Under the pieces are notes generated by a model. That model had not been told where the DNA came from. It saw only the letters and a program-made list of their open reading frames with translations, and did not search any database. A DNA stretch of 55,375 nt. Origin: an uncultured Candidatus Saccharibacteria bacterium (GTDB lineage Bacteria; Patescibacteriota; Saccharimonadia; QS-5-54-17). Each line of letters starts with the position of its first letter. Position 1 is the first letter of the stretch. Below are positions 21,717 to 43,123 of the stretch, piece after piece. The position numbers were made by a program, and so were the translations under genes. The stretch covers positions 1 to 55,375 of the forward strand of contig CAZAXT010000001.1 of assembly GCA_964489295.1 (NCBI GenBank). Reading direction: 5' to 3'.

Positions 21717-21717
21717 T

Positions 21718-21870
21718 ATGTCCTCTGTCAGACTAGCTACTGTACTCAAGCCCCGGTGGCGTAATGAAAATGCTACACACATAGTGTATGCCCGGGTATG
21801 TTATGGATATCCGTGTAATGGCATATCGTGTGTGTCCACAGCAGTCGATGCTACGGGAATGGAGTTTTGA
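21718..21870 (+). CDS. Candidate spacer-filling (bridging) small ORF, 50 aa, rpoC>rpsL
   Basis: ATG 1 nt after the rpoC TAA; TGA 1 nt before the rpsL ATG; [50 protein letters not shown]; no family recognised. Confidence 0.3.
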
Positions 21871-21871
21871 T

Positions 21872-22279
21872 ATGCCTACAATGAACCAATTAGTCAACAA
21901 ACCACGCAAGAAGAAGAAGCGGCAGTCCAAATCTGCAGCACTACACCAGGTGAATAACGTTTTGCACAACAAAACGTATGAAAAACCGTCTCCGCTGAAG
22001 CGAGGCGTGTGTTTACGGGTCACGACCCAAAGTCCGAAGAAGCCGAACTCGGCGTTGCGCAAAATCGCCCGTGTCCGTTTGACTAACGGCAAGGAAATTA
22101 CCGCCTATATCCCCGGCGAAGGGCACAACCTCCAGGAGCACTCGGTGGTGCTGGTCCGCGGCGGCAGTGTCAAAGACTTGCCGGGTGTCCGCTATCACGT
22201 TGTTCGCGGCGCGTTTGATACCGGCGGTGTATCGGAACGAACCAAAGCACGCAGTAAATACGGAACCAAGAAAGGGTAA
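21872..22279 (+). CDS. rpsL: 30S ribosomal protein S12
   Basis: [16 protein letters not shown]..., conserved [10 protein letters not shown]; GGAG 7 nt upstream; tracked ORF start (21788) rejected. Confidence 0.97.
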
Positions 22280-22281
22280 TC

Positions 22282-22758
22282 ATGCCGCGCAAGAAAACCA
22301 AGACGCTCCAACGACAAATCCAGCCGGACCGGAAATACAATAGCGTACTGGTGCAGCGGTTTATCAATAAAGTTATGCAGGACGGCAAAAAACTAAAAGC
22401 CGAGCGGCTCGTATACGATGCGCTCGATGAAGTAGAACGCCGCACCAAGCAACCGGCACTCGAGGTATTCCAACAAGCTATCGAAAACGCCGCACCGTCT
22501 CTAGAGGTCAAATCACGGCGAGTGGGCGGGGCCAATTACCAGGTACCATTTGAAGTGCACGGCAACCGCCGTACCCATTTGACTTTGATGTGGATGGTGC
22601 AGGCCGTTCGCCAGAAAAGCGGCCAATCCATGAGTCAGCGCATTGCTGATGAAATCATAAACGCCTACAACGAAACCGGCGATACGTTCAAAAAGAAGGA
22701 AGACGCACACCGGATGGCCGAGGCCAACCGCGCATTCGCGCACCTAGCGAGGTTTTGA
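22282..22758 (+). CDS. rpsG: 30S ribosomal protein S7
   Basis: 158 aa; MPRK...PDRKYNSVLVQRFINKVM, typical S7. Confidence 0.97.
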   Translation: MPRKKTKTLQRQIQPDRKYNSVLVQRFINKVMQDGKKLKAERLVYDALDEVERRTKQPALEVFQQAIENAAPSLEVKSRRVGGANYQVPFEVHGNRRTHLTLMWMVQAVRQKSGQSMSQRIADEIINAYNETGDTFKKKEDAHRMAEANRAFAHLARF

Positions 22759-22760
22759 TT

Positions 22761-23024
22761 ATGGAAGAGCAATCACGGTACACTTCACAAGCTGATTTTC
22801 CTGCTCAATGCAAGGAATGTCCTATGTTGGTGGGTATGATTGAAGACGGAGAATTGCCACCCGATCGCCGATTGGATGAGGAAGAAAAACAAGAGATGCG
22901 CGAAGCGCTCGGTAGATGGGTGGTTGATTCGTGCCCGGGACCAACAATAGAGAGCAATCAGGCAAATTTCGCCATTACGTGCACAGCAATGGACCAGTTA
23001 GAAAATAGTGGGATTAATCGATAA
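22761..23024 (+). CDS. Hypothetical 87-aa acidic Cys-containing protein filling the rpsG>fusA spacer
   Basis: ATG 2 nt after the rpsG TGA; TAA 10 nt before the fusA ATG; contains CKEC plus two more Cys; no family recognised; looks AT-richer than its neighbours. Confidence 0.4.
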
Positions 23025-23034
23025 GGGTCTTTGT

Positions 23035-25125
23035 ATGGGGCAACGGGACTACGCACTAGACGTCACTAGGAACATCGGGACTATTGCCCACATCGATGCC
23101 GGTAAAACAACGGTCACCGAAGGTATACTGTATCGTACTGGTATCGTGCACCGAATTGGTGCGGTTCACGAGGGTGAAGCCACCATGGACTGGATGTCTC
23201 AGGAGCAGGAGCGTGGTATCACCATTACTTCGGCCGCGACCACGTGTTTCTGGAACGACCACCGCATCAACATCATCGATACGCCCGGCCATATCGACTT
23301 TACGGTCGAGGTCGAACGCTCCCTACGGGTGCTTGATGGCGCGGTCGTAATTTTTGACGGCAAGATGGGCGTGGAGCCGCAGTCGGAAACGGTGTGGCAC
23401 CAGGCGGACAAATACCACGTTCCCCGGATATGCTTTATTAATAAGATCAACCAAACCGGTGGCGACTTCTACGAGAGCTTGGAAACCATCCAGGAGCAGC
23501 TCAGCAGTAACGCCTACCCGATCCACTTGCCGATCGGCCATGAACAGGATATCAACGGTGTCGTTGATCTGATCGAAATGAAATCATACACCTATAGCAA
23601 TTACAGCGATAAAGAGCTGCACGTCGATGACGTACCCGAGGATATGCGTGAAAAGTGCGAACGTTATCGCCAGCATTTGATCGAGGGTGCGCTGGAAAAT
23701 GATGACGAGCTGCTGGAGAAGTACCTGGAAACCGGTGATCTGAGTGTGGATGAAATTAAATCCGCTGTCAGAAAGTCAGTGTTGACCGGACAGTTCTTTC
23801 TGATTACCGGCGGCGACGGGCGAGGTGTGATCGTGGAAAAATTACTGGACGCCGTTACTGATTTTCTCCCCAGTCCGCTGGATGTGCCGCCCGCTGAAGG
23901 AGAAGACCCGAAAACCGGTGACACGATTACCCGGACCGCTGATGACGAGGGTCCGTTCGCGGCCTTGGCTTTTAAAATCGCAGCCGATCCGTACGTGGGT
24001 AAACTAACCTTTTTCCGCGTCTATTCGGGCACTCTGAAAACCGGTTCATACGTACTAAATGCCAATACCGGTGAAAAAGAACGCGTCGGAAGAATCGTGC
24101 GACTGCACTCTAACCACCGTGAGGAAGTCGACGAAGTATATACTGGCGATATTGCGGCCGCGGTCGGATTGAAGAAGACGACGACCGGTGACACATTATC
24201 CGAGGCGGACCAACCTATCATGCTGGAGAACATTACGTTTCCCGATCCGCCGGTCCAGGTGGCGATCGAACCCAAGACCAAAGCCGACCAGGAAAAGATG
24301 TCCCAGGCCCTGCAACGTTTGGCCGAAGAAGACCCTACATTTCAGCTGTCCACGGATGAGGAGACCGGACAGACGCTGGTTGCCGGTATGGGCGAATTGC
24401 ACTTACACATCATCGTTGATCGTTTGAAACGCGAGTTCAAAGTCGATGCCAACGTTGGCAACCCGCAGGTAGCCTACCGTGAAGCCATGAAAAAACCGGT
24501 CAAAAATATCGAAGCTCAATTCATCAAACAAAGCGGCGGACGCGGACAGTACGGTCACGTCATCATCGATGCTGAACCTTTGGAGCGCGGGGAAGGGTTC
24601 CAGTTCGAGAACAAGATCGCAGGCGGCGTCATACCCAAAGAATTCATAAATCCGATCGAGCAAGGCATTAAAGAAGCTCTGGCAAGCGGTATTGTGGCCG
24701 GATACCCGGTTATCGACGTAGGAGTCGTGTTGCATGATGGCTCATATCACGAGGTCGACTCTTCGGAGGTCGCTTTCAAAATGGCCGGTTCCATGGCGAT
24801 CCAGGATGCGGTTAAACAATCGAATCCGGTGTTACTAGAGCCGATCATGCGAGTCGACGTTACCATGCCCGAAGAGTTTATGGGTGATGTCATGGGCGAC
24901 ATTAATTCCCGCCGCGGCCGCGTGGAATCCATGGGCGACCGGGCTAAGGCCAAACTCGTCGAAGCTTATGTGCCGCTGGCTGAGATGTTCGGGTACGAAA
25001 CCGATCTCCGCTCTATGACCCAAGGACGAGCGGCCAGCTCGATGGAACTGTCCCATTACGAAGAAGTGCCTTCGAATGTCGCCGAAACTATCATCGGATC
25101 TCAGACGTCCTCCAAAAATGAATAG
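23035..25125 (+). CDS. fusA: Elongation factor G
   Basis: G1 [10 protein letters not shown]3 DTPGH, G4 NKID-type (NKIN), domains II-V; start placed at [15 protein letters not shown]. Confidence 0.97.
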
Positions 25126-25197
25126 ATCTGCGCGGTCGTCTTGTATTGTGCGTAGCGCCCCATGAGATTTCCCGGGTAAAAATTTACCCAACAGGGG

Positions 25198-25226
25198 TTT
25201 ACAAGAACTGCGGCAAAACGTATAAT
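25198..25226 (+). promoter_or_regulatory. Candidate strong sigma70-type promoter for tuf
   Basis: TTTACA, exactly 17 nt, TATAAT; followed by hairpin GCGCC-ATAC-GGCGC in the 5' UTR. Confidence 0.6.
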
Positions 25227-25297
25227 CACAACCTGATGAAAAAGCGCCATACGGCGCCTGATGAATAACAGAGTTAACGCATGTAAGGAGTAATCAC

Positions 25298-26482: not shown

Positions 26483-26511
26483 TTTACGCCAAGAAACATA
26501 AGGCATATCAT
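26483..26511 (+). promoter_or_regulatory. Weak candidate promoter upstream of rpsJ
   Basis: TTTACG, 17-nt spacer, TATCAT directly after the tuf stop; competes with the uORF interpretation. Confidence 0.3.
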
Positions 26512-26569
26512 GAACACATTGACATTCGGTTCCAATATGGCGACAGAAAAGGAGCACTCTCGTGGCTGA
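26510..26569 (+). CDS. Candidate 19-aa upstream ORF overlapping the rpsJ start
   Basis: [19 protein letters not shown]; the TGA lies at +5..+7 of the rpsJ GTG (GTGGCTGA); same geometry as at rpsI. Confidence 0.2.
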
Positions 26570-26879
26570 GGCAACAAAACAGCGTATCCGTATCCGGTTA
26601 AAAGCCTACGATCACAAATTGGTTGATCAATCGGCCAAGCAGATTATCGATACGGCGCTCCGGACCGGAGCCAATGTGTCCGGACCGGTGCCGCTTCCGA
26701 CCGACCGAAGCGAATACACGGTCGTCCGCGGGCCGTTCAAACATAAGGATTCCCGTGAACAATTCGAAATGCGCGTTCATAAACGGTTGATCGATATCAC
26801 CGAACCCACGGACAAAACCATCGACAATCTCATGAACCTGAGTTTACCGACCGGTGTCGATACCGAAATAAAAATGTGA
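26562..26879 (+). CDS. rpsJ: 30S ribosomal protein S10
   Basis: 105 aa; GTG start 6 nt after AAGGAGCA; [14 protein letters not shown]...GPVPLPT typical S10. Confidence 0.96.
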
Positions 26880-26882
26880 CGT

Positions 26883-27329
26883 ATGCGTCAAAAACCGGAG
26901 CGTACTGACATTTCGTTTGGCGGGATACTATTCCAGCATTCTGTCAGTATCGATTCGAAACTTTTGGCGTTACGGCACCGTGCCGGTCACTGGGGACTGC
27001 CAAAGGGGCACTCAGAGCATGATGAGGCCCCAATCCAGACAGCTGAACGTGAAATTCGCGAAGAAACGGGCATCGAGGATGTAAGCTTGCAATCAGAGCC
27101 AACGTTTTCCCAAAAGTACACGTTCGAAGATGACAACACGGTATATCACAAAACCGTAACCTATTTTCTGGGTATGACATCTCAGCACAGGGTAACGACA
27201 CAACCGGCCGAAATCATAGAATATCGATGGGTCGGGCTTGAAGAAGCGCGAGCTCTCCTTGTAGTTAACGGCAATGTCAATGAAGCGCTGGAGCAAGTTC
27301 GGGAGTATCTGCAATCAAAACATATATAA
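26883..27329 (+). CDS. NUDIX hydrolase
   Basis: 148 aa; complete Nudix box GHSEHDEAPIQTAEREIREETGI (G-x5-E-x7-REUxEExGU). Confidence 0.85.
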   Translation: MRQKPERTDISFGGILFQHSVSIDSKLLALRHRAGHWGLPKGHSEHDEAPIQTAEREIREETGIEDVSLQSEPTFSQKYTFEDDNTVYHKTVTYFLGMTSQHRVTTQPAEIIEYRWVGLEEARALLVVNGNVNEALEQVREYLQSKHI

Positions 27330-27384
27330 CCGGTTTGATGTCACGTCTCGTCAAGCAAGCGCAAGTTTGATTTAATAGAAGGTA

Positions 27385-27642
27385 ATGACACGCAACACAT
27401 CCGCCAAACAGACCGAAACCGACTCAGCGTATTTTTTGAAAATATTGCTGTTTTTTATCGTCGGGGCAATCTGGATTGAGATAACGGCCTGGAACGCTTC
27501 TTTGCCGCTCGGATTAGTGCTCGGGTTGGTGTTTGCCAGCCATGATCATTTCCAGATCGACCGGAAGATCGAATACGCGGTACTGCTGATAGCGGCCATC
27601 GTGAGTTTCATCGCGCCGATCGGTATCGTTGCCCAAATATGA
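27385..27642 (+). CDS. Small hypothetical membrane protein (85 aa, 2-3 TM)
   Basis: GAAGG SD; hydrophobic segments FLKILLFFIVGAIWI, LPLGLVLGLVFA, AVLLIAAIVSFIAPIGIV; stop overlaps the next start (ATGA). Confidence 0.55.
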   Translation: MTRNTSAKQTETDSAYFLKILLFFIVGAIWIEITAWNASLPLGLVLGLVFASHDHFQIDRKIEYAVLLIAAIVSFIAPIGIVAQI

Positions 27643-29354
27643 CAGCCCGTTCATACCATACGCCCAGGTCCCGTAAAAAACGACACCGATCCTCCGGGTC
27701 AAAACGGCATAGGCGGCACTGGTTCGTGTACGGAATCGGTCTTGTCGTAGTTATATCCGGAATCGGAGCCGGTGCCTATTGGTGGTACACGCAGCCACGG
27801 ACCGCCGAGATAGCTTACCAGCCGTGCCGGATCGAATACGGCACCGTCGTGGCCGAATGGGAAGGTACGGACAGGGACGCTCCATGGAACGACGCCAACC
27901 ACCACTATCAACTTCGTCGGTTTAGCCTCCGTGCTACGGCGCCGGATGTCTTTTTCCCGAATACGATCGAATCTCCGCCTACCCGGATAGCGACCGGTGG
28001 TGAGGATACCTGCAAGAACGAGTTCGATGAAACAGTGGATGTGGCCGCGGAACGGTATCGATGGCATGGAGCCAGGACAACGGCTCTGCGCCTGGGAAGA
28101 CCGTCCTCAGCACCGTTACCCGGGGCAGTGCGTATGCCGGAGGTTGCCAAACCTGCTGACCCCGGCTTGAAGGTGCCGACGCTTGGAAAACCCCGATCAG
28201 CCGCGGTGTGGGTGGATGATGGCGGGTCGGCGTCGCTCAGTCATGATGGTCAGCGCCAGCAATGGTGGTGCATCAACGCGCCTGGGTGCGGAAGCATCGC
28301 TGGGCAACGCCATAATGCACAGGTTGCACGGGGTGCGGGGTATCAATACGTGCCTGATAATTGTCCGCCGGGTATTTCATGTCATGGTAATTGGCGGGAC
28401 GGAAAAGGTACGCCGCGTGTCATTGGACGCACCCATGGTATGCTGCAGCCGTTCGACATGCGGCTGTCAGCCGTTTCAACCTATGCCGATACGGTCGGAG
28501 CCGCTGTTTTAGTAACGTTCAAATACCCCGAACAAACCACTATACAAACGTCACTCACTGGTACACCGGGAAGTATTGCTCCGGGTGCTTCCTTTGAAAC
28601 TGATCTGACTCTCCATAAGAAAGGTCCGGCCGTGGATTCACTGACCGTGAAGGCCGATACGACCGGCCATCCCATACGCAACAAAGAACCCGTTCGATTA
28701 ACCCGGTCACAGATATCCCGTTTGAATACGGCCGATACGGTCCAACTTCCCGTGCGTTTCCGGTTAAGCGACGAAGCGCAATCCGGGATGTGTCATAGTA
28801 TACCGCTTACCATAGCGAAAGTTGAGGCGGATACGTCTTTAGCGAATCCCGAGGTAGCATATTGCGTGGCAGCCGAGGAAACCCGTATTCAATATCAAGT
28901 GCGCACCCGCGGCGCTATCGACACGAACACCGAAACATTCAAAACCCAGGTGGCTCATACGCTGCGGGATTCTCGCGGGTGGACGGCAGCAAACATTACG
29001 TTTGACCGGGTGGCAAATGGCGGTGATTTCACCTTGTGGTTGGCGTCCGCGGATGCCGTGTCCGATTTTTCCAGCGGATGCAGCCCCCAGTATAGTTGCC
29101 GTGTCGGGTCGAATGTGATCATCAATGATACGCGGTGGCAAAACGCGACACCGGCTTGGAACCAAGCGGGTGGTGGTCTGCGGAATTATCGTCACATGGT
29201 GATCAATCATGAAGTCGGGCATTTTCTCGGGCTCGGGCACCGTAGCTGCCCGGGAGCGGGGCAAGCGGCGCCGATTATGATGCAACAATCGATTGATCTA
29301 GATGGATGCCGGTTTAACCCATGGCCGTTACCGGGAGAACTCGAGCGTATATGA
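27639..29354 (+). CDS. Membrane-anchored protein with C-terminal DUF3152-like zinc metalloprotease motif
   Basis: 571 aa; Arg/Lys-rich N-terminus, TM WFVYGIGLVVVISGIGAGAYWWY, Cys-rich middle region; C-terminus RGW...FDRV...DFTLWLAS...RW...YRHMVINHEVGHFLGLGHRSCPG...APIMMQQS (HExxHxxGxxH); resemblance to actinobacterial DUF3152 is from memory only. Confidence 0.7.
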   Translation: MTARSYHTPRSRKKRHRSSGSKRHRRHWFVYGIGLVVVISGIGAGAYWWYTQPRTAEIAYQPCRIEYGTVVAEWEGTDRDAPWNDANHHYQLRRFSLRATAPDVFFPNTIESPPTRIATGGEDTCKNEFDETVDVAAERYRWHGARTTALRLGRPSSAPLPGAVRMPEVAKPADPGLKVPTLGKPRSAAVWVDDGGSASLSHDGQRQQWWCINAPGCGSIAGQRHNAQVARGAGYQYVPDNCPPGISCHGNWRDGKGTPRVIGRTHGMLQPFDMRLSAVSTYADTVGAAVLVTFKYPEQTTIQTSLTGTPGSIAPGASFETDLTLHKKGPAVDSLTVKADTTGHPIRNKEPVRLTRSQISRLNTADTVQLPVRFRLSDEAQSGMCHSIPLTIAKVEADTSLANPEVAYCVAAEETRIQYQVRTRGAIDTNTETFKTQVAHTLRDSRGWTAANITFDRVANGGDFTLWLASADAVSDFSSGCSPQYSCRVGSNVIINDTRWQNATPAWNQAGGGLRNYRHMVINHEVGHFLGLGHRSCPGAGQAAPIMMQQSIDLDGCRFNPWPLPGELERI

Positions 29355-29392
29355 TACCGTCATTCGACCCCGGACTCATGGAAGTGCTCCAG

Positions 29393-29422
29393 TTGACATC
29401 TGTTTCACGGTGTTGATATACT
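29393..29422 (+). promoter_or_regulatory. Candidate sigma70-type promoter restarting the S10 operon at rplC
   Basis: TTGACA (29393-29398), 18-nt spacer, TATACT (29417-29422); the approximately 100-nt leader contains hairpin GTGCCGT-N11-ACGGCAC. Confidence 0.5.
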
Positions 29423-31888: not shown

Positions 31889-32020
31889 ATGTGTGGATCG
31901 AAGACGCAAAACGCAACATTTGGACTCAAGACTCGTGAAACAGCTCGCGGATCATATGCGAGTGTTGCTTCTTATGCCGTGGCGCGTGTTTCATGTACGG
32001 GTTTTGGAGGTCAGATATGA
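31889..32020 (+). CDS. Candidate spacer-filling (bridging) small ORF, 43 aa, rplB>rpsS
   Basis: ATG 1 nt after the rplB TAG, with GAGGAAG upstream; TGA overlaps the rpsS ATG (ATGA); [43 protein letters not shown]. Confidence 0.3.
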
Positions 32021-34133: not shown

Positions 34134-34498
34134 TACAGCAGGAAAGCCGTCTCAAAGTAGCCGACAACAGTGGAGCGCGCGAGTTGCAATGCATCAAGGT
34201 GCTCGGGGGTAGTAAACGTCGATATGCTCGGTTGGGCGATGTATTTATTGCCAGCGTTAAATCCGCCACACCCGGTGCAGCTATCAATAAAAAGGACGTG
34301 GTTCGCGCGGTCGTGGTGCGCTCCAGCGATATTACCCAGCGACATGACGGCTCATCGATCAGATTCGACGAAAACGCGGCGGTCGTCATCGATTCAGGAA
34401 AAAATCCGCGCGGAAGTCGTGTATTCGGTCCAATTGCCCGTGAGCTCAGGGAGAAAAAATTCGGCAAAATAATTTCGCTGGCGCCGGAGGTTTTGTGA
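34130..34498 (+). CDS. rplN: 50S ribosomal protein L14
   Basis: [16 protein letters not shown]... ends ...IISLAPEVL at a TGA, the canonical L14 C-terminus; ATGA overlap with rpsQ. Confidence 0.97.
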
Positions 34499-34605
34499 TG
34501 AAAAATTTCAAGCTGCGCGTTTCAAGTTTAAGACATAAGAGTCCGGCGCAGACCGAGAGTCGTCCGATGCCCGTCGGCTCGGGCGTCCAAAGGGGGCGAG
34601 TATGA
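34498..34605 (+). CDS. Candidate spacer-filling (bridging) small ORF, 35 aa, basic, rplN>rplX
   Basis: ATG overlaps the rplN stop (TGATG); GGAGG at 34486-34490 with 7-nt spacing; TGA overlaps the rplX ATG (ATGA); [35 protein letters not shown]. Confidence 0.4.
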   Translation: MKNFKLRVSSLRHKSPAQTESRPMPVGSGVQRGRV

Positions 34606-36028: not shown

Positions 36029-36030
36029 TT

Positions 36031-36102
36031 ATGCAAATACGAGCTATAAATCACTGGAACAAAATTTGTATATCGGAGAACAACCGGAAGGAGCGATCAT
36101 GA
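36031..36102 (+). CDS. Candidate spacer-filling (bridging) small ORF, 23 aa, rpsH>rplF
   Basis: ATG 2 nt after the rpsH TAG; TGA overlaps the rplF ATG (ATGA); MQIRAINHWNKICISENNRKERS. Confidence 0.25.
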   Translation: MQIRAINHWNKICISENNRKERS

Positions 36103-36967: not shown

Positions 36968-37441
36968 ATGAGCCCCGAAGAGAGTCAAGACCAATTCCAG
37001 GAACGAGTCGTCAATGTGGACCGTGTATCCCGCGTCGTCAAGGGCGGCCGCCGGTTCCGTTTCCGTGCGCTTGTGGTTGTCGGTGACCAGAATGGTCAAG
37101 TCGGAGTGGGGCTTGCCAAAAGTGATGATGTAACTTCGGCCGTCTCGAAGGCTTCCGACCAAGCTAAGAAACACCGTATCGAAATACCGGTTGAAAACGG
37201 TACAATTCCGCATGAAGTAGAAGCCAAGCATTCCGGTGGCCATGTGCTGTTGAAGCCGGCCGGCCAGGGGACTGGAGTGATAGCCGGTGGTGCGGTCCGT
37301 GATGTGGTGGAAATGGCCGGATTGAGTAATATCCTGACGAAATCACTAGGTTCGCCCAACAAGATCAACATCAGCTACGCTACCATCGATGCGCTGCAAA
37401 AGATAATTCCCGCCCGCGAGGTTGCCCATGAAAATTCATGA
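36968..37441 (+). CDS. rpsE: 30S ribosomal protein S5
   Basis: 157 aa; [26 protein letters not shown]. Confidence 0.95.
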
Positions 37442-37871
37442 ATTGCAGGTATCCGGTAAAAAAACACGTAAGCGCGTAGGCCGTGGTGACGGCAGTGGCA
37501 TCGGAACCACGTCCGGCCGTGGCGACAACGGGCAGAATTCCCGCAGTGGCGGCAGGGTTTCCCCGGGCTTTGAAGGTGGCCAAACCCCGATTTCCAAACG
37601 GATCCCCAAGAGCCGCGGCTTCAAAAAACTTTCTCGCGAGTGGACGCTTATCCATACCGACCAATTGAATGTCTTTTCCGAAGGCTCGCGAGTGGACGCA
37701 TCGACGCTTAAAGAGCAAGGATTACTGAAAGATGACGATCAACCCGTGAAACTACTGTATCGAGGAGACGTGGAACATCCGGTCCACGTGGTCGTCGGCA
37801 GCGTTAGCCGGAATGCCAGGACGGCAGTAGAAAATGCCGGGGGTACGGTAACCCAAGGGTGGCAGGAGTAG
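37428..37871 (+). CDS. rplO: 50S ribosomal protein L15
   Basis: MKIHELQ...KRVGRGDGSGIGTTSGRG; overlaps the rpsE 3' end, so there is no room for rpmD (L30). Confidence 0.93.
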   Translation: MKIHELQVSGKKTRKRVGRGDGSGIGTTSGRGDNGQNSRSGGRVSPGFEGGQTPISKRIPKSRGFKKLSREWTLIHTDQLNVFSEGSRVDASTLKEQGLLKDDDQPVKLLYRGDVEHPVHVVVGSVSRNARTAVENAGGTVTQGWQE

Positions 37872-39176: not shown

Positions 39177-39227
39177 GACGTGGAGGCAGAAGCGGATTAG
39201 TTGGTCGATATACATCTGCTTAGAGGG

Positions 39228-39256
39228 TTTACAGGGTGATAAAAAGTGCGTATAAT
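39228..39256 (+). promoter_or_regulatory. Candidate strong sigma70-type promoter for infA-rpmJ-alpha operon
   Basis: TTTACA, exactly 17 nt, TATAAT, 21 nt upstream of the infA ATG. Confidence 0.6.
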
Positions 39257-39277
39257 TGAGGATTGTAATTTTTAGGT

Positions 39278-39499
39278 ATGGCCAGCAGTAAGGAAGTTAT
39301 AGAATTTGAGGGTACAGTACTCGAGACACTGCCGAACGCGATGTTTCGGGTAAAGCTCGAAAACGGGCATGAAGTACTTGCTGTTATTGCTGGCAAGATG
39401 CGTATGCATTATATCAAGATCGTTCCTGGTGATACGGTCACGGTGGAGATGACGCCGTACGATTTGTCCAAGGGTCGGATCACGTATAGGCATAAATAA
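39278..39499 (+). CDS. infA: Translation initiation factor IF-1
   Basis: 73 aa; [25 protein letters not shown]...GKMR S1-like fold. Confidence 0.97.
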
Positions 39500-39514
39500 G
39501 CAAGGGTTAGAGTT

Positions 39515-39628
39515 ATGAAGGTGCAAGCAAGTGTCAAAAAACGGTGTGTTCGGTGCAAACTCATTCGTCGCAGTGGGGTCGTCCGGGTCATATGCTCTAA
39601 TCCACGACATAAACAGAGGCAGGGATGA
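39515..39628 (+). CDS. rpmJ: 50S ribosomal protein L36 (zinc type)
   Basis: 37 aa, absent from the ORF track (below its size cutoff): [37 protein letters not shown]. Confidence 0.93.
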
Positions 39629-39726
39629 TGAACGCAGGTTTTAGTTTACGGACTATAGATTGTAGTCAAGACGCGCATATCCACGGTAAAAGTGGTAGCT
39701 GTCACTTCACGGGAGGGGCCCGGTAA
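39625..39726 (+). CDS. Candidate spacer-filling (bridging) small ORF, 33 aa, rpmJ>rpsM
   Basis: ATGATGA overlaps the rpmJ stop; TAA overlaps the rpsM ATG (TAATG); [33 protein letters not shown]. Confidence 0.3.
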
Positions 39727-40094
39727 TGGCGCGTGTAGCACGGGTCGATATCCCTGATAGCAAACGGGTCGCTGTTTCTTTGACGTATATCAAAGGAATC
39801 GGCGATACGAGTGCCCGAAACATCCTTAAAGAGACCGGCGTAGATCCAGATACCCGAGTTAAAGACTTGACCGAAACCGAGTTGAGCAGCATCCGCGAGA
39901 TCATCGAGAACCAATATATCGTGGAAGGCGATCTGGCGCAGCGGATTCGCACGAACGTCAGTCGTCTACGCGAGATAAACAGTTATCGCGGCGTTCGTCA
40001 CAAGTCAGGGTTGCCGGTCCGCGGTCAACGGACTCAGAAAAACGCCCGTACCAGAAAAGGCCGGCGCAGTTCAATCGGTAGTATGCAAAAGTAA
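39726..40094 (+). CDS. rpsM: 30S ribosomal protein S13
   Basis: [15 protein letters not shown]...GIG typical S13. Confidence 0.96.
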
Positions 40095-40113
40095 TATGAG
40101 AATAAGGTAGTTC

Positions 40114-40500
40114 ATGGCGCAACAGGCGAAATCCACTAAAAAGAAGAAGCGTACAGTTCCGAGTGGACAAGTGCACGTCCAAGCGACGTTCAATAACACC
40201 ATCGTGACGTTCACCGACACGAGTGGCAAAACGCTGGCGTGGTCGAGTGCGGGTTCGGCCGGCTTCAAAGGATCGCGTAAAGGCACGGCATATGCCGCCC
40301 AGGTAGCGAGCAAGAACGCGGCCGAGAAAGTCAAAGACCATAAAGTCAAAGAGGTATCCGTGTTCGTTAAAGGTATCGGCCAGGGACGGGAAGCCGCTGT
40401 CAGGGCGCTCATGAATACCGATATGGAAGTTAGAAGTATCAAAGACGTGACCGGTGTACCGCATAACGGATGCCGACCGAGAAAGCCACGGAGGATCTAG
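40114..40500 (+). CDS. rpsK: 30S ribosomal protein S11
   Basis: 128 aa; HVQATFNNTIVTFTDTSG...GFKGSRKGT. Confidence 0.96.
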   Translation: MAQQAKSTKKKKRTVPSGQVHVQATFNNTIVTFTDTSGKTLAWSSAGSAGFKGSRKGTAYAAQVASKNAAEKVKDHKVKEVSVFVKGIGQGREAAVRALMNTDMEVRSIKDVTGVPHNGCRPRKPRRI

Positions 40501-40503
40501 GAT

Positions 40504-40617
40504 ATGCAACACGCAACACGCAACACGCAACACGCAAAGCAAGCAATAAACGGACAGTTCGTTCCGTATTGGCTATTTCCTGTTGTGTGTTCCACGCGAT
40601 TGAAAGGAGCGTTGTAA
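40504..40617 (+). CDS. Candidate spacer-filling (bridging) small ORF, 37 aa, rpsK>rpsD
   Basis: GGAGGA 9 nt upstream; ATG 3 nt after the rpsK TAG; TAA overlaps the rpsD ATG (TAATG); MQHATRNTQHAKQAINGQFVPYWLFPVVCSTRLKGAL; its 5' third is encoded by the heptamer array. Confidence 0.35.
   Translation: MQHATRNTQHAKQAINGQFVPYWLFPVVCSTRLKGAL
40506..40533 (+). repeat. Tandem heptamer array (GCAACAC) x4 plus degenerate units to about 40547
   Basis: Read directly: GCAACAC GCAACAC GCAACAC GCAACAC GCAAAGC AAGCAAT. Confidence 0.9.
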
Positions 40618-41225
40618 TGGCGCGAAATCGACAACCGATCGTTAAGCAAAGCCGCCGCGAGGGAACGGCATTACACCCCAAAGCCCATAAAGTCATGGTA
40701 CGCCGAAAAGCATTGCCGGGTGAACGGGCTGGTGCTCGTCGTAGCAAGACCACCCAGTACGGGCAACAATTGCGTGAGAAGCAAAAAGTTAAGCGTATGT
40801 ACGGCCTGCTGGAGAAACAATTCCGCCGTCTCGTGGAAGAGGCCGAGCGCCAAAACGGCATTACCGGTGAGATTCTGTTGCAACTGCTGGAGCGCCGACT
40901 CGACAATGTCGTATACCGCTTGCATTTGGCTTCAAGCCGGAAAGCAGCCCGACAATTGGTCACGCACGGGCATATCATGCTGAATGGTCGGCGGGTTGAC
41001 GTGCCGTCCATACGGGTTAGAGTTGGTGATGAAATCACGGTCCGCCCCAAAAGCGCCAAAAACGCGTATTTCCAATCCCTGGAGATTGACCAAAAGGTTG
41101 ATTTGAGCTGGTTGTCGTTCGATACAACCAAGCTGAAGGCCACGGTCACAGGGGAGCCGAACCGTGATGAGGCTGAGCCAGGAATCAGTGAACAATTAAT
41201 AATTGAATTTTACTCAAGACAATAG
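40617..41225 (+). CDS. rpsD: 30S ribosomal protein S4
   Basis: MARNRQPIVKQSRREG...; AAAGGAG SD; S4 RNA-binding domain; tracked start (40470) rejected. Confidence 0.95.
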   Translation: MARNRQPIVKQSRREGTALHPKAHKVMVRRKALPGERAGARRSKTTQYGQQLREKQKVKRMYGLLEKQFRRLVEEAERQNGITGEILLQLLERRLDNVVYRLHLASSRKAARQLVTHGHIMLNGRRVDVPSIRVRVGDEITVRPKSAKNAYFQSLEIDQKVDLSWLSFDTTKLKATVTGEPNRDEAEPGISEQLIIEFYSRQ

Positions 41226-41236
41226 GAGAACATACC

Positions 41237-42142
41237 ATGTACGCTATTCATCTACCAGACATTACCAAAAGCGACGAAGACGCCACGCACGGCACATTCG
41301 TGGTCGAGCCGCTGCATCGCGGGTACGGAGTGACACTCGGAAACTCCATACGCCGTGTGTTGCTGTCATCGCTCGGCGGTGGCGCGGTTACGGCCTTTAG
41401 TGTAGAAGGAGCAAGCCACGAGTTCACCAGCCTGGACGGCGTCAAAGAAGACGTGGTGCAGATCACCTTGAACTTGAAGCGCCTGCGTTTCCGGGTTTAC
41501 ACCGATGATCCGCAGACTGTGACTCTCAAGAAGAAAGGCAAAGGCGAAGTGACCGGCGCTGATATTTCGGGCACCGCTGATGTAGAAGTCGCCAATCCGG
41601 AACAAATTATTGCTACCCTGGATGATGACAAGACCGAACTCAATATGACATTGCAAGTGGAGAAAGGTCGCGGCTATGTACCGGTGGATGAGCGTCACGA
41701 ACAACTGCCGGTCGGTATGATCGCCATCGACGCACTCTTCTCCCCGGTCGACCGAGTCCGTTATAAAGTGGAAAATACCCGTGTCGGTCAGATTACTGAC
41801 TTGGATAGACTGACACTGGAAATCGTAACCGACGGCACGATAACTCCGAGTCAGGCCATGCAGCAATCGGCCGAGATACTCGTGAACCAGTTCAATGTAT
41901 TGGCTGGAGCTGAAGGAAACGAAGCTGTTGAATCACCTGAAGAAGACGGGGATGAATTGGCCGTCAGCGTGGAGGATCTGGAGTTGTCGTCCCGTACCAC
42001 CAACGCCCTTCAAAAGAACGGTGTTACCACGGTGAAAGATCTGGTGCAGATGAACGAATCCGAACTCAAAGGCTTGCAAGGATTCGGCGATAAGGCTCGT
42101 GATGAAGTTATGTCCAAACTCAAGGAGCTGGAGCTGAAGTAA
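41237..42142 (+). CDS. rpoA: DNA-directed RNA polymerase subunit alpha
   Basis: 301 aa; N-terminal dimerisation domain (GYGVTLGNSIRRVLLSS) and C-terminal domain with helix-hairpin-helix (LELSSRTTNALQKNGVTTVKDL). Confidence 0.95.
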   Translation: MYAIHLPDITKSDEDATHGTFVVEPLHRGYGVTLGNSIRRVLLSSLGGGAVTAFSVEGASHEFTSLDGVKEDVVQITLNLKRLRFRVYTDDPQTVTLKKKGKGEVTGADISGTADVEVANPEQIIATLDDDKTELNMTLQVEKGRGYVPVDERHEQLPVGMIAIDALFSPVDRVRYKVENTRVGQITDLDRLTLEIVTDGTITPSQAMQQSAEILVNQFNVLAGAEGNEAVESPEEDGDELAVSVEDLELSSRTTNALQKNGVTTVKDLVQMNESELKGLQGFGDKARDEVMSKLKELELK

Positions 42143-42579
42143 TGACGACCAAAGCGAAGACGGCCAAACTTTCCCGGCAACGGAACAAACGGAACGCCCT
42201 TATGCGGTCGTTGGCAGAATCGTTGATAGACCAGGAAAGTATTGTTACTACTGACACGAAAGCGCGCACACTTCGTCCGTACATCGAAAAACTGGTCACC
42301 AAAGCAAAAACCAACACACAAGCTCGACGACGGTTGATCCGGAGCCGTCTGAATACCGACGAAGCGACGGACAAGTTGTTCGATGTTATCGCTCCACGCT
42401 TTCACCAGCGCCCTGGTGGATACACCCGCCTGTCCCGGGCCGGTCTCAGACGGGGAGACAACGCGCCGATGACACGTATCAGTTTCGTGGAAGAAATGAC
42501 TCCCCAAACAAACGCGGAATCACAACAAACGGAATCCAAAACCGGTACTTCCAAGACGGCCAAGGGAGCGCAACAGTGA
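42142..42579 (+). CDS. rplQ: 50S ribosomal protein L17 with Thr/Gln/Lys-rich C-terminal tail
   Basis: 145 aa; KLSRQRNKRNALMRSLA...GGYTRL. Confidence 0.93.
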   Translation: MTTKAKTAKLSRQRNKRNALMRSLAESLIDQESIVTTDTKARTLRPYIEKLVTKAKTNTQARRRLIRSRLNTDEATDKLFDVIAPRFHQRPGGYTRLSRAGLRRGDNAPMTRISFVEEMTPQTNAESQQTESKTGTSKTAKGAQQ

Positions 42580-43004
42580 GTACGTACAACCAGAAGCCGG
42601 CCGAAGTCACCCGGGATTGGTATATCGTTGATGCGTCAGGTATTACATTGGGACGACTCGCTACGGTGGTGGCCGAAAAACTGACAGGAAAACATAAACC
42701 GACCTATACGCCGCACGTTGACGGCGGGGACTGTGTGATCGTCATTAACGCTGCTAAAGTCAATGTGACCGGCAAAAAACACACCGACAAAACCTATCAC
42801 CGCCACTCCGGCTACCCGGGCGGCTTGAAAACCAAAAACTTTGAACAGGAAATTGCCCAGCATCCGCAGCGGGTCATGTACCGCGCGGTTGCGGGTATGC
42901 TACCGGATAATAAATTACGCGATCAACGCTTGAAACGGTTGAAGGTATACAAAAGGGGAGAGCACCCCCACACCGCCCAACAACCCACGGAGCTACACGT
43001 ATGA
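42576..43004 (+). CDS. rplM: 50S ribosomal protein L13
   Basis: 142 aa; WYIVDASGITLGRLA...KPTYTPHVD.GD.VIVINA. Confidence 0.95.
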   Translation: MSTYNQKPAEVTRDWYIVDASGITLGRLATVVAEKLTGKHKPTYTPHVDGGDCVIVINAAKVNVTGKKHTDKTYHRHSGYPGGLKTKNFEQEIAQHPQRVMYRAVAGMLPDNKLRDQRLKRLKVYKRGEHPHTAQQPTELHV

Positions 43005-43123
43005 GCACGAAAGAAGTGCTAAACCGGCCAGTTTTTATCAACTTTATAAAAAGCGTTATCAATCCATGTTGCAAATTGTTTGTTGCATGTTGCATACGAC
43101 GAGAAGGAGCATATCGTGGCTAA
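43001..43123 (+). CDS. Candidate spacer-filling (bridging) small ORF, 40 aa, rplM>rpsI
   Basis: ATG overlaps the rplM stop (ATGA); GGAG 8 nt upstream; TAA lies at +5..+7 of the rpsI GTG (GTGGCTAA); MSTKEVLNRPVFINFIKSVINPCCKLFVACCIRREGAYRG. Confidence 0.35.
   Translation: MSTKEVLNRPVFINFIKSVINPCCKLFVACCIRREGAYRG
43067..43094 (+). repeat. Heptamer array TGTTGCA-AATTGTT-TGTTGCA-TGTTGCA
   Basis: Read directly; the core TGTTGC is the complement of the GCAACA core of the array at 40506-40533. Confidence 0.7.

What the first reader, a model, noticed from the sequence alone, without database searches (positions are those of the whole stretch)
21717..43123. Every long promoter-less spacer in the RNAP/ribosomal-protein string is exactly filled by a small ORF (candidate translational relay ORFs)
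Pattern. Most junctions in the rpoBC-str-S10-spc-alpha-L13/S9 string are tight: ATGA or TAATG overlaps, or gaps of 0-20 nt. Eight junctions are long and have no recognisable promoter. Each of these is spanned by one open frame that starts at, or within 3 nt of, the upstream stop codon. Each ends overlapping the downstream start, or 1-10 nt before it.

The eight cases:
- rpoC>rpsL, 21718-21870, 50 aa
- rpsG>fusA, 22761-23024, 87 aa
- rplB>rpsS, 31889-32020, 43 aa
- rplN>rplX, 34498-34605, 35 aa
- rpsH>rplF, 36031-36102, 23 aa
- rpmJ>rpsM, 39625-39726, 33 aa
- rpsK>rpsD, 40504-40617, 37 aa
- rplM>rpsI, 43001-43123, 40 aa

Supporting detail. Several have a good SD buried in the 3' end of the upstream gene: GGAGG before 34498, GGAGGA before 40504, GGAG before 43001. 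The peptides share no similarity with each other and mostly do not look protein-like. That points to selection on the act of translation rather than on the product.

Rough expectation. With about 3/64 stop codons per random codon, a 35-50 codon frame is open by chance only about 10-20% of the time. That is before requiring both ends to abut the flanking genes.

Contrast cases. Spacers with a clear promoter are not bridged: clpP>rpoB, fusA>tuf and the rplC leader. Spacers between non-ribosomal genes are not bridged either: tyrS>recG, rsmD>antiporter, pseudouridine synthase>SEDS, SEDS>rplU and rplU>parA. Two cases are partial: tuf>rpsJ and secY>infA.

Hypothesis. These are relay ORFs that keep ribosomes on the mRNA across expanded spacers. 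This would preserve translational coupling and stoichiometry, and protect against Rho-dependent polarity or RNase attack. I know of no description of such a systematic arrangement.
Basis: partly seen in the sequence, partly recalled or inferred. Interest (0 to 1): 0.82.

Follow-up and report, generated by a model that had tools for sequence, protein, structure and literature searches.

The report
Bridge ORFs filling ribosomal-operon spacers
In this Saccharibacteria genome and its close relatives, every piece of extra DNA lying between ribosomal-protein genes is kept as a small open reading frame that starts at the previous gene's stop and ends at the next gene's start, so ribosomes can apparently translate straight across the gap while the peptide itself evolves freely.

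Summary
All eight small ORFs (sORFs) start with ATG, −3 to +4 nt from the end of the upstream stop codon. All end −11 to +7 nt from the downstream start. Shuffles predict 1.5 bridged spacers of 12; eight are bridged (P≈2.5e-6).

The four unbridged long spacers behave differently. Three of them, plus clpP>rpoB, carry the window's only 11/12 sigma-70-like promoter matches.

The window comes from a Saccharibacteria (CPR) genome. More distant relatives (L002, L089) have tight 0–7-nt junctions at five of these sites, so those spacers are lineage-specific insertions. In five lineages of the clade, 21 of 22 promoter-less long junctions are bridged, although the spacer sequences cannot be aligned between lineages.

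Sister genomes show that only the reading frame is under selection:
- Substitutions are spread evenly over codon positions (43/45/43), with pN/pS 0.74.
- Indels are almost absent (P≈1e-4).

The idea is not without precedent. Mycobacterial MIRU repeats and engineered bicistronic designs use the same double-coupling geometry. Here, however, the spacers are unique sequences, not repeats. One case, rpsG>fusA, may be a decaying real gene.

The parts
21718..21870 (+). sORF1, rpoC>rpsL bridge, 50 codons. ATG lies 2 nt after the rpoC TAA. Its TGA ends 2 nt before the rpsL ATG (21872). The rpsL SD, GGAG at 21861-21864, lies inside the sORF.
   Evidence: Bridged ORFs sit at the same junction in L001 (162 nt) and L084 (188 nt). 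The first 12 codons are conserved with L001; the rest cannot be aligned. Contains a 15-nt x2.2 tandem repeat at 21799-21831.
22761..23024 (+). sORF2, rpsG>fusA bridge, 87 codons. ATG lies 3 nt after the rpsG TGA. Its TAA ends 10 nt before the fusA ATG (23035). It is the only one that looks protein-like (CKEC ... CPGP ... C).
   Evidence: ORFs of 113-127 aa with an N-terminal CxxC occupy this junction in L002, L089, L006 and L016. L001 and L087 keep a 43-44-codon remnant in the same frame without the cysteines. No significant BLASTP similarity and no Pfam match.
31889..32020 (+). sORF3, rplB>rpsS bridge, 43 codons. ATG lies 2 nt after the rplB TAG. ATGA overlap with the rpsS start (32017). The rpsS SD, GGAGG, is at 32006-32010.
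   Evidence: Seven of 7 clade genomes have a 107-130-nt spacer here. All are bridged from an ATG and all end in the ATGA overlap, with unrelated peptides. L002 and L089 have a 7-nt junction.
34498..34605 (+). sORF4, rplN>rplX bridge, 35 codons. TGATG overlap with the rplN stop. ATGA overlap with the rplX start (34602). The ancestral SD, GGAGG at 34486-34490, now precedes the sORF.
   Evidence: The junction is tight (-4) in L001, L083, L084 and L085. L087 has a different 133-nt insertion that cannot be aligned with this one, and it is also bridged. These are therefore recent and independent insertions.
36031..36102 (+). sORF5, rpsH>rplF bridge, 23 codons. ATG lies 3 nt after the rpsH TAG. ATGA overlap with the rplF start (36099). 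The rplF SD, AAGGAG, is at 36088-36093.
   Evidence: Five of 5 clade genomes with 67-109-nt spacers are bridged. This is the least informative case on its own: shuffle probability is 0.13-0.52.
39625..39726 (+). sORF6, rpmJ>rpsM bridge, 33 codons. ATGA overlap with the rpmJ stop. TAATG overlap with the rpsM start (39726). The rpsM SD, GGAGG, is at 39712-39716.
   Evidence: Bridged in L001 and L087 (106 nt). Tight (0 or -1 nt) in L084, L089 and L002.
40504..40617 (+). sORF7, rpsK>rpsD bridge, 37 codons. ATG lies 4 nt after the rpsK TAG. TAATG overlap with the rpsD start (40617). The ancestral SD, GGAGG, is at 40490-40494. The rpsD SD, AAGGAG, is at 40604-40609.
   Evidence: Bridged in L001, L087 and L084. 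Tight in L095, L089 and L002. Contains a perfect 7-nt repeat, GCAACAC x4.6, at 40506-40537.
43001..43123 (+). sORF8, rplM>rpsI bridge, 40 codons. ATGA overlap with the rplM stop. Its TAA ends 7 nt inside rpsI (GTG start at 43116). The rpsI SD, AAGGAG, is at 43104-43109.
   Evidence: In relatives the same junction is 27 nt (L094), 34 nt (L092) or 90 nt (L095). Each is bridged, by an 11-, 12- or 33-codon ORF that overlaps both neighbours.
25198..25226 (+). Contrast feature: promoter-like site TTTACA-17-TATAAT in the unbridged fusA>tuf spacer.
   Evidence: 11 of 12 matches. fusA>tuf is never bridged in 9 genomes.
29393..29422 (+). Contrast feature: promoter-like site TTGACA-18-TATACT (with TG) in the unbridged DUF3152>rplC spacer.
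   Evidence: 11 of 12 matches. Never bridged in 9 genomes.
39228..39256 (+). Contrast feature: promoter-like site TTTACA-17-TATAAT in the unbridged secY>infA spacer.
   Evidence: 11 of 12 matches. Bridged in 1 of 8 genomes.

Best explanation
These are translated spacer ORFs ("bridge" or "relay" ORFs).

**Background.** In this Saccharibacteria clade the ribosomal-protein and RNA-polymerase operons are packed with -4, -1 and 0-nt junctions. This is the geometry of termination-reinitiation coupling.

**What happened.** DNA of unknown source was inserted, or grew by local duplication, just downstream of the old initiation site of several cistrons.
- The old SD and ATG, still abutting the upstream stop codon, now open a small ORF.
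- That ORF runs through the insert and terminates on or next to the start codon of the displaced gene.
- The displaced gene has a new SD inside the 3' end of the sORF.

**How it would work.** A ribosome finishing the upstream gene re-initiates on the sORF, translates the spacer, terminates at the next start and re-initiates again. The chain of coupled translation is not interrupted and the spacer RNA is never left untranslated.

**What is selected.** Selection acts on the frame: start position, absence of stops, absence of frameshifts and stop position. It does not act on the peptide.

**Shown.** The geometry, the excess over chance, the recurrence in relatives with unrelated sequences, a neutral-like substitution pattern, and strong avoidance of indels.

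**Inferred.** That the ORFs are translated, that re-initiation is the route, and that the benefit is stoichiometric coupling, propagation of autogenous control, or protection from Rho or RNases.
For: - **Geometry.** All eight sORFs are coupled at both ends.
- **Chance.** Eight of 12 long spacers are bridged, against 1.5 expected (P = 2.5e-6).
- **Link to promoters.** The 11/12 promoter matches fall only in unbridged spacers.
- **Insertions.** L002 and L089 have 0-7-nt junctions at five of the sites, so those spacers are insertions.
- **Recurrence.** 21 of 22 promoter-less long junctions are bridged in five lineages, against 3.5-7.0 expected (P between 1e-15 and 1e-22). Promoter-type junctions give 2 of 19 against about 1.1-1.5 expected.
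- **Per junction.** rplB>rpsS 7/7, rpsH>rplF 5/5, rpsK>rpsD 4/4, rplM>rpsI 4/4, rpmJ>rpsM 3/3 and rpoC>rpsL 3/3, all with peptides that cannot be aligned.
- **Independent events.** The two insertions at rplN>rplX, in the window and in L087, are independent and both are bridged.
- **No peptide selection.** L001 vs L087 sORFs: pS 0.255, pN 0.189, differences by codon position 43/45/43. Flanking genes: pS 0.164, pN 0.013, 100/57/605.
- **Frame kept.** Two indel events in 661 nt, against 8 in 383 nt in unbridged spacers (P = 1.1e-4). L083 vs L085 rplB>rpsS has 0 indels in 130 nt, against 36 events in 495 nt elsewhere (P = 7.8e-5).
- **Ancestral SD reused.** The sORF starts sit behind the same SD that serves the downstream gene in tight-junction relatives.
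- **Why a bridge is needed.** Published experiments show that about 20 nt of untranslated spacer almost abolishes termination-reinitiation coupling (PMC10666635). The same double-coupling logic is described for MIRUs and bicistronic designs (PMC12548453).
Against: - There is no direct evidence of translation. The organism is uncultivated, and no Ribo-seq or proteomics data are available.
- Seven of the 8 downstream genes have strong SDs of their own. They could initiate independently, so the need for a relay is not demonstrated.
- Avoidance of stop codons in the close sister pairs is only weakly significant on its own (joint P = 0.037).
- Two sORF starts (rpoC>rpsL, rpsH>rplF) lack an SD.
- The short cases have high chance probabilities individually (0.13-0.56).
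- The lineages are not strictly independent, so the pooled P values are optimistic.
- In more distant Saccharibacteria only 38 of 257 long spacers are bridged. This exceeds the roughly 9 expected, but the rule is not universal, and the gene boundaries there were called automatically and roughly.
- The source of the inserted DNA is unknown. No target-site duplication signal and no repeat family were found.
Confidence: 0.7

Rival explanations
1. Historical relics without present function. The inserts arrived as ORF-carrying mobile elements (MIRU-like), as in-frame extensions or duplications, or as small genes. They are simply still open, so the bridging geometry is inherited from the moment of insertion and is not maintained by selection.
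For: - A mobile-looking structured element in other Saccharibacteria arrives with bridging geometry built in, through a duplicated SD-stop-ATG target. L034 has AAGGAGATCAAGTAATG on both sides.
- rpsG>fusA looks like a shrinking older gene.
- Short tandem repeats are enriched in the spacers: 4 of 34 arrays lie in 2.9% of the sequence.
- Stop avoidance in the sister pairs is only weakly significant (P = 0.037).
Against: - Spacers at the same junction have diverged until they cannot be aligned (54-62% identity), yet all stay open and keep both abutments. Examples are 7/7 at rplB>rpsS and 4/4 at rplM>rpsI.
- Indels are strongly depleted relative to neighbouring non-coding spacers, which evolve more slowly.
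- Under neutrality most lineages should have lost the frame. Shuffle probabilities are 0.03-0.56 per spacer.
- This rival explains the origin, not the maintenance. It is compatible with the best explanation as a first step.
Confidence: 0.13
2. The sORFs encode functional micro-proteins, for example ribosome-associated peptides, that are co-expressed with ribosomal proteins.
For: - Gene callers annotate several of them as proteins.
- sORF2 has CxxC and C..C motifs that are shared loosely with ORFs at the same junction in distant relatives.
Against: - pN/pS is 0.74 and substitutions are uniform over codon positions.
- The peptides cannot be aligned between lineages that share 80-87% identity in ribosomal proteins.
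- There is no Pfam match and no significant BLASTP similarity for sORF2.
- The codon-usage score is -0.06, against +0.25 for real genes.
- The same junction carries ORFs of 11 to 40 codons in different genomes.
Confidence: 0.05
3. The spacers are cis-acting RNA elements, and the ORFs are incidental. Candidates are ribosomal-protein autoregulatory binding sites, processing sites or attenuators.
For: - Ribosomal-protein operons are known to carry such RNA structures (general knowledge; PMC3616713 is listed).
- A few spacers can form long imperfect hairpins.
- A terminator-like hairpin lies at 31943-31963.
Against: - There is no Rfam match, even at E<=1.
- Folding energies are no better than shuffles (z from -1.3 to +0.7 for all bridged spacers).
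- Neither sequence nor structure is conserved between lineages.
- An RNA element would not explain start and stop abutment or the avoidance of frame-breaking indels.
Confidence: 0.05
4. Chance open frames in a T-poor coding strand, combined with selective reporting by the first reader.
For: - Individual short spacers have 13-56% chance probabilities under a lenient criterion.
- Genes starting with ATGA give a free stop in one frame.
Against: - The joint probability in the window is 2.5e-6.
- The pattern repeats in every clade genome examined.
- Promoter-bearing spacers of similar length in the same genomes are bridged at the chance rate, 2 of 19 against 1.1-1.5 expected.
Confidence: 0.01

Closest known systems
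MIRUs (mycobacterial interspersed repetitive units; Supply et al. 1997, as summarised in the translational-coupling review PMC12548453)
   Same: - Short DNA sits between co-oriented genes of operons.
- It is inserted at a start codon.
- It carries an ORF that is translationally coupled to the neighbouring gene with a -4 overlap. This is thought to let the insertion persist with little effect on expression.
   Different: - MIRUs are a dispersed, often tandemly repeated sequence family. The window's eight spacers share no similarity with each other or with other loci and show no target-site duplication.
- The host here is a CPR bacterium.
- The sites are concentrated in the RNA-polymerase and ribosomal-protein string.
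- The evidence here is evolutionary: selection on the frame only.
Termination-reinitiation coupling at overlapping gene pairs (-4 ATGA and -1 TAATG; Huber et al. 2023, PMC10666635)
   Same: Both ends of every sORF use exactly these overlaps or gaps of 10 nt or less. The rest of the operon string uses them too.
   Different: The known cases couple two functional genes directly. Here a peptide-indifferent ORF is placed between them as an intermediate link.
Engineered bicistronic design (BCD) and natural uORFs that "deliver" ribosomes (review PMC12548453, section 11)
   Same: A short leader ORF contains the SD of the gene of interest in its 3' end and stops on the gene's start codon. The product of the short ORF is irrelevant.
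   Different: - BCDs and uORFs sit at the 5' end of a transcript, behind a promoter, and start by ordinary initiation.
- These sORFs are internal, promoter-less and also coupled to the upstream cistron, so they form a two-sided relay.
Rickettsia palindromic elements (RPEs) inserted in frame into genes (from my own knowledge, not checked here)
   Same: Inserted DNA survives in essential, highly expressed genes only in a form that keeps the reading frame open.
   Different: - RPEs become part of the host protein and form a repeat family with a palindromic structure.
- Here the insert is a separate cistron, is not repeated, and is not significantly structured.

Membership tests
MIRU-type intercistronic repeat with coupled ORF | Located between co-oriented genes of an operon, in the same orientation as the genes | tested here: met
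   All eight lie inside the + strand rpoBC/str/S10/spc/alpha/L13-S9 string. None contains a strong promoter match.
MIRU-type intercistronic repeat with coupled ORF | Internal ORF whose ends overlap or abut the stop and start codons of the flanking genes | tested here: met
   Start is -3 to +4 nt from the upstream stop end. Stop is -11 to +7 nt from the downstream start.
MIRU-type intercistronic repeat with coupled ORF | Member of a dispersed or tandem repeat family (copies similar in sequence) | tested here: not met
   All-against-all blastn of 29 clade spacers gave only three chance-level 12-16-nt matches. No copies were found elsewhere in the window or in 90 loci. Only 55 kb of this genome was available.
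MIRU-type intercistronic repeat with coupled ORF | Signs of transposition, such as target-site duplication at the insertion point | tested here: not met
   Similarity between upstream and downstream junctions scores 6.9, against a null of 6.56. In contrast, a different element in other Saccharibacteria does show a duplicated 15-17-nt target.
Termination-reinitiation (translationally coupled) cistron pairs | Stop and start overlap (-4 or -1) or lie within about 10 nt | tested here: met
   Met at both ends of all eight sORFs. The distance requirement is taken from PMC10666635.
Termination-reinitiation (translationally coupled) cistron pairs | Translation of the downstream cistron depends on translation of the upstream one | not testable with these tools
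   Needs reporter assays or Ribo-seq.
Functional small-protein gene | Purifying selection on the amino-acid sequence, with homologues conserved among relatives | tested here: not met
   pN/pS is 0.74 and codon-position differences are 43/45/43. The peptides cannot be aligned between lineages. No Pfam match. sORF2 alone is inconclusive.
Ribosomal-protein leader or cis-regulatory RNA (Rfam families) | Match to a curated covariance model, or a conserved and unusually stable fold | tested here: not met
   No Rfam match at gathering score or at E<=1. Folding z-scores range from -1.3 to +0.7.
Leader-peptide attenuators (trpL, pheL, ermCL type) | Short ORF in a 5' leader behind a promoter, with alternative terminator and antiterminator hairpins | tested here: not met
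   The sORFs are internal to operons and lack promoters. Terminator-like sites are not enriched: 33 against 24 +/- 5, and 21 against 16.5 +/- 4.
Bicistronic-design-like architecture | SD of the downstream gene embedded in the 3' end of a short ORF whose stop overlaps the downstream start | tested here: met
   Seven of 8 downstream genes have GGAG, GGAGG, AAGGAG or GGGG 5-9 nt upstream, inside the sORF. Five of 8 have ATGA or TAATG overlaps.

The most novel reading that the evidence does not exclude
In lineages whose ribosomal-protein operons depend on termination-reinitiation, intercistronic DNA can persist only as a translated spacer. This would be a class of ORFs kept by selection purely on frame and on stop/start abutment, with freely drifting peptides.

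Such spacers appear, grow and shrink repeatedly. Examples are the rplM>rpsI series of 27, 34, 90 and 111 nt, and the independent insertions at rplN>rplX.

Part of the supply may come from a MIRU-like structured element that I found at ten ribosomal-protein junctions in other Saccharibacteria. If so, this is a natural, replicated experiment on the fitness value of translational coupling. It is also a source of de novo ORFs inside the most highly expressed operons.
Probability: 0.5. Interest if true: 0.78.

Novelty: new variant of a known kind. Interest (0 to 1): 0.7.

Why it matters
- **Coupling under selection.** The data give comparative evidence that uninterrupted translation through an operon is itself selected. 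It is strong enough to hold 23-87-codon frames open with no constraint on the peptide. How much translational coupling contributes to fitness and stoichiometry is still debated (review PMC12548453).
- **ORF-calling caveat.** It defines a class of ORFs that are truly translated-by-design but not protein-coding in the usual sense. This matters for annotation of small ORFs and for dN/dS-based gene calling.
- **Gene birth.** It offers a route to new genes: drifting peptides that are made at ribosomal-protein expression levels.
- **CPR biology.** It is a trait of uncultivated CPR bacteria that can be tested directly by Ribo-seq in cultivated Saccharibacteria or with simple reporters.

Tried and rejected
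- **Stop-codon reassignment or read-through.** Rejected. None of the sORFs is in frame with its upstream gene, and all begin with ATG.
- **Mis-called downstream starts or N-terminal extensions.** Rejected. The homologous N-termini align from residue 1, and the sORFs are in other frames or are closed by a stop.
- **Known RNA families.** None found, at gathering score or at E<=1.
- **Unusually stable RNA structure.** Not found.
- **Repeat family among the spacers, or copies elsewhere.** None found.
- **Target-site or tandem duplication of the junction as the origin.** No signal in the window clade. Hints only: the sORF4 start ATGAAAAATTTCAAG resembles the rplX start ATGAAAATCAAG; L001 and L087 carry a 10-nt duplication, GAGGATTTAA; short tandem repeats are mildly enriched.
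- **Metagenome scan with rplD.** Wasted. Close relatives were recovered instead through the protein search and exact-protein look-ups.
- **Homology of sORF2 to the CxxC ORFs of distant relatives.** Suggestive motifs only, not significant. No Pfam match for it or for the longer junction ORFs.
- **Codon-usage scoring.** sORFs score -0.06, between real genes (+0.25) and off-frames (-0.31). The off-frame value is depressed by stops, so the comparison is of limited use.
- **Rfam search for the structured element of other Saccharibacteria.** Only a chance-level snoRNA hit, far below threshold.

Full report
**What the window is.** The rpoB-rpoC-rpsL-rpsG-fusA / tuf-rpsJ / rplC...secY / infA...rpsI string lies on the + strand at 14.4-43.5 kb. 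The L2 protein finds its best relatives in uncultivated Candidatus Saccharibacteria (CPR). The closest is L001 (PXOU01000019, QS_5_54_17; 79% L2 identity, 86.7% mean over 32 proteins). Next is L002 (68% L2 identity, about 70% mean). The protein search shows that the window is itself an NCBI contig of 55,375 nt. As is typical of CPR, there is no L30 gene, and there is no adk or map between secY and infA.

**Checking the observation.** Every one of the eight ORFs is present as described. All start with ATG. The start lies -3 to +4 nt from the end of the upstream stop codon. The stop ends -11 to +7 nt from the downstream start: five ATGA or TAATG overlaps, one TGA-T-ATG, one 10-nt gap and one 8-nt overlap with a GTG start. 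The downstream starts are secure, because homologous proteins align from residue 1. In the string, 12 spacers are 60 nt or longer, and eight of them are bridged. The four others are fusA>tuf, tuf>rpsJ, DUF3152>rplC and secY>infA. Three of these, plus clpP>rpoB, contain the only 11-of-12 sigma-70-like matches on the + strand in 14-47 kb. No bridged spacer has one.

**Chance.** I fixed a lenient criterion: a start of any of three kinds within -3 to +15 nt, and a stop within -12 to +15 nt. With 1000 dinucleotide-preserving shuffles per spacer, 1.48 bridged spacers are expected against 8 observed (P = 2.5e-6). If the first 18 nt are kept, and with them the start codon, 2.2 are expected (P = 4.5e-6). 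Individual short spacers are not impressive (0.13-0.56). The force of the result lies in the set.

**The spacers are insertions.** L002 and L089 (about 70% mean identity) have 0-7-nt junctions at rplB>rpsS, rplN>rplX, rpsH>rplF, rpmJ>rpsM and rpsK>rpsD. There the start codon abuts the stop behind an SD that lies in the upstream gene's 3' end. In the window the same SDs now precede the sORF ATGs (GGAGG before 34498 and 40504, GAGG before 39625). Each displaced gene has a new SD inside the sORF 3' end. The sORF therefore inherits the ancestral initiation site, and the insert sits just downstream of it.

**Relatives.** Through the protein search and exact-protein look-ups I recovered several loci:
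- the window organism again (L082);
- a sister of L001 (L087 and L088);
- L083, with L092 and L093 apparently from the same organism;
- L084, with L094 from the same contig;
- L085 and L086, with L095 from the same assembly;
- L091 and L089.

The junction table and one search show that every expanded intra-operon junction in this clade is bridged:

| Junction | Bridged | Note |
|---|---|---|
| rplB>rpsS | 7/7 | |
| rpsH>rplF | 5/5 | |
| rpsK>rpsD | 4/4 | |
| rplM>rpsI | 4/4 | spacers of 27, 34, 90 and 111 nt with ORFs of 11, 12, 33 and 40 codons |
| rpmJ>rpsM | 3/3 | |
| rpoC>rpsL | 3/3 | |
| rplN>rplX | 2/2 | |
| rpsG>fusA | 3/4 | the exception is a 123-codon ORF ending 16 nt before fusA |

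The controls behave differently: fusA>tuf is bridged in 0 of 9 genomes, >rplC in 0 of 9 and secY>infA in 1 of 8. Taking one genome per lineage, 21 of 22 promoter-less long junctions are bridged against 3.5-7.0 expected. Promoter-type junctions give 2 of 19 against 1.1-1.5 expected. The pooled P values (1e-15 to 1e-22) are optimistic because the lineages share ancestry. Even so, the spacers cannot be aligned between lineages (54-62% identity, with many alignment gaps). The inserts at rplN>rplX in the window and in L087 are different sequences and are absent from L001, L083, L084 and L085. They are therefore independent recent events, and both are bridged.

**What is under selection.** L001 and L087 are close enough for codon analysis.

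| | pS | pN | Differences at codon positions 1/2/3 |
|---|---|---|---|
| Flanking genes | 0.164 | 0.013 | 100 / 57 / 605 |
| Six sORFs | 0.255 | 0.189 | 43 / 45 / 43 |

The sORFs have pN/pS 0.74, so there is no trace of selection on the peptide, and they change at least as fast as synonymous sites. Yet the same six spacers carry only two indel events in 661 nt. One is 3 nt long; the other is a 2-nt change near the end of tuf>rpsJ that merely moves the stop. The four unbridged spacers are more conserved in sequence (83-90% identity), but they carry eight indel events in 383 nt (P = 1.1e-4). Between L083 and L085, the rplB>rpsS spacer is 72% identical with no indel. The five other spacers have 36 indel events in 495 nt (P = 7.8e-5). 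Random-substitution simulations give only weak separate support for stop avoidance in these close pairs (joint P = 0.037). The stronger evidence for stop avoidance is that the frames persist after the sequences have diverged to saturation. The codon-usage score of the sORFs (-0.06) lies well below that of real genes (+0.25).

**Alternatives examined.**
- No Rfam family matches the region, even at E<=1.
- No bridged spacer folds better than its shuffles (z from -1.3 to +0.7).
- The spacers are not a repeat family and have no copies elsewhere in the data held.
- No target-site-duplication signal is detectable.
- None of the sORFs is in frame with its upstream gene, which excludes read-through.
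- sORF2 (rpsG>fusA, 87 codons) is a partial exception. ORFs of 113-127 codons with an N-terminal CxxC sit at this junction in L002, L089, L006 and L016, and a second Cys-containing motif follows in some of them. The window's ORF keeps CKEC and CPGP...C. L001 and L087 keep only a 43-44-codon remnant of the 3' part, in the same frame, without the cysteines and still bridging. The similarity is not statistically significant and there is no Pfam match. I read this as a small gene in decay that can shrink but may not lose its frame. That fits the same rule.

**Mechanism proposed.** Shown: the geometry, the statistics and the evolutionary signature. Inferred: ribosomes terminating on the upstream gene re-initiate on the sORF, translate the insert and re-initiate on the next gene. 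The sORF restores the overlap or gap of 10 nt or less that termination-reinitiation needs. In E. coli and Haloferax, about 20 nt of untranslated spacer almost abolishes coupling (PMC10666635). A translating ribosome would also open any structure around the downstream SD, as in bicistronic designs, and would leave no naked RNA for Rho or nucleases. In ribosomal-protein operons, coupling additionally propagates autogenous translational repression down the operon (established knowledge from E. coli). This would explain why the phenomenon is concentrated here. The main weakness is that the displaced genes have good SDs of their own, so the quantitative need for the relay remains to be shown.

**Origin.** This is unresolved. 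There are hints of local growth by slippage or duplication:
- a perfect 7-nt repeat x4.6 in sORF7, a degenerate 7-nt repeat x4.4 in sORF8 and a 15-nt repeat x2.2 in sORF1;
- a 10-nt tandem duplication, GAGGATTTAA, at the L001 and L087 rpsK>rpsD junction;
- four of 34 tandem-repeat arrays lying in the 2.9% of sequence formed by bridged spacers;
- the graded sizes at rplM>rpsI.

Separately, other Saccharibacteria carry a conserved structured element at ten ribosomal-protein junctions, which shows how such bridges can be born ready-made (see the items noticed in passing).

**Comparison with what is known.** The nearest precedent is the MIRU. The 2025 review describes it as a mobile repeat that inserts at start codons so that an internal ORF is coupled to the gene with -4 spacing (PMC12548453). 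The window's spacers share the position and the double coupling. They fail the defining repeat-family and transposition features, so they work like MIRU ORFs but are not MIRUs. Bicistronic designs and ribosome-delivering uORFs share the downstream half of the architecture. Full-text searches found nothing on such ORFs in Saccharibacteria or Patescibacteria, or in ribosomal-protein operons. That library is incomplete.

**Verdict.** The pattern is real, replicated across relatives and non-random. The best reading is frame-selected, peptide-indifferent bridge ORFs that keep translation continuous across insertions in tightly coupled operons (confidence about 0.7). It is a new variant of a known principle, not a new principle. 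Interest 0.7.

Noticed in passing
L034:5071-5186, L009:7410-7531 and 11434-11554, L026:11117-11228, L016:8811-8908, L069:3328-3435 and 771-871, L040:14045-14161, L050:59-154, L034:3821-4011: Other Saccharibacteria carry a conserved element of about 100-120 nt at ten different ribosomal-protein junctions, always on the gene strand. Its core is AGGGAAAAGAGCAGC, then a variable hairpin with 9 compensatory pairs, then GCGCG, then an invariant hairpin AUGAGAAAAACC-GUA-GGUUUGUCUCAU. Several copies are flanked by a duplicated 15-17-nt SD-stop-ATG target (L034: AAGGAGATCAAGTAATG on both sides). Seven of the copies form a doubly coupled sORF. There is no Rfam match. It looks like a MIRU-like mobile structured RNA element.
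   Followed up: partly
L006:10839-11159, L020:10859-11185, L027:10860-11153, L035:10840-11139, L040:10840-11151, L050:1447-1743, L051:6077-6397, L071:4895-5146, L074:10857-11114; rpsL>rpsG in L015, L016, L020 and L055: Many more distant Saccharibacteria have tightly coupled ORFs of 77-106 codons between rplB and rpsS (9 of 12 long spacers) and between rpsL and rpsG (4 of 5). They are mostly acidic. The six of them that were scanned have no credible Pfam match. Some are visibly related to each other: L027 and L051 share YPW.(Q/E)GFDA. They may be real accessory genes, or larger versions of the same bridges.
   Followed up: partly
window 26883-29354: Three non-ribosomal genes sit between rpsJ and rplC: a NUDIX hydrolase (26883-27329), an 85-aa ORF (27385-27642) and a DUF3152 protein (27639-29354). 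The last two are conserved at this position across the clade and in L002 and L089. A strong promoter-like site for rplC follows at 29393-29422.
   Followed up: partly
window 40506-40537 and 43065-43095: sORF7 contains a perfect heptamer repeat, GCAACAC x4.6. sORF8 contains a degenerate heptamer repeat, CATGTTG x4.4, which resembles its reverse complement (a 16-nt match on opposite strands). A change of one repeat unit would break the frame.
   Followed up: partly
L001:19388-19411 and L087:18720-18739: A 10-nt tandem duplication, GAGGATTTAA GAGGATTTAA, lies right at the rpsK stop. It duplicates the SD and the stop codon ahead of the sORF start. This is direct evidence that local duplication reshapes these junctions.
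   Followed up: no
window 5847-5909: The 66-nt tyrS>recG spacer is spanned by a 20-codon GTG ORF. It overlaps the tyrS stop and ends 8 nt before recG, so bridging may not be strictly limited to the ribosomal string.
   Followed up: no
window 26483-26561; L001:5311-5382, L087:4504-4584, L084:5422-5520, L085:4554-4673: tuf>rpsJ is unbridged in the window and in L083; the window has a weak 9/12 promoter-like match at 26483-26511. It is bridged by 23-39-codon ATG ORFs in four relatives, so the state of this junction varies within the clade.
   Followed up: partly
window 31943-31963: A terminator-like hairpin (7 bp, followed by GTTGCTTCTT) lies inside sORF3 on the + strand. Terminator-like sites are not enriched overall, so it may be nothing. 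A translating ribosome would, however, suppress such a hairpin.
   Followed up: no
window 36968-37871 and 39177-39277: There is no rpmD (L30) between rpsE and rplO. There is no adk or map between secY and infA. This gene content is typical of CPR and Saccharibacteria.
   Followed up: no
window 10541-10624: A tRNA gene is the only Rfam match in the whole window.
   Followed up: no
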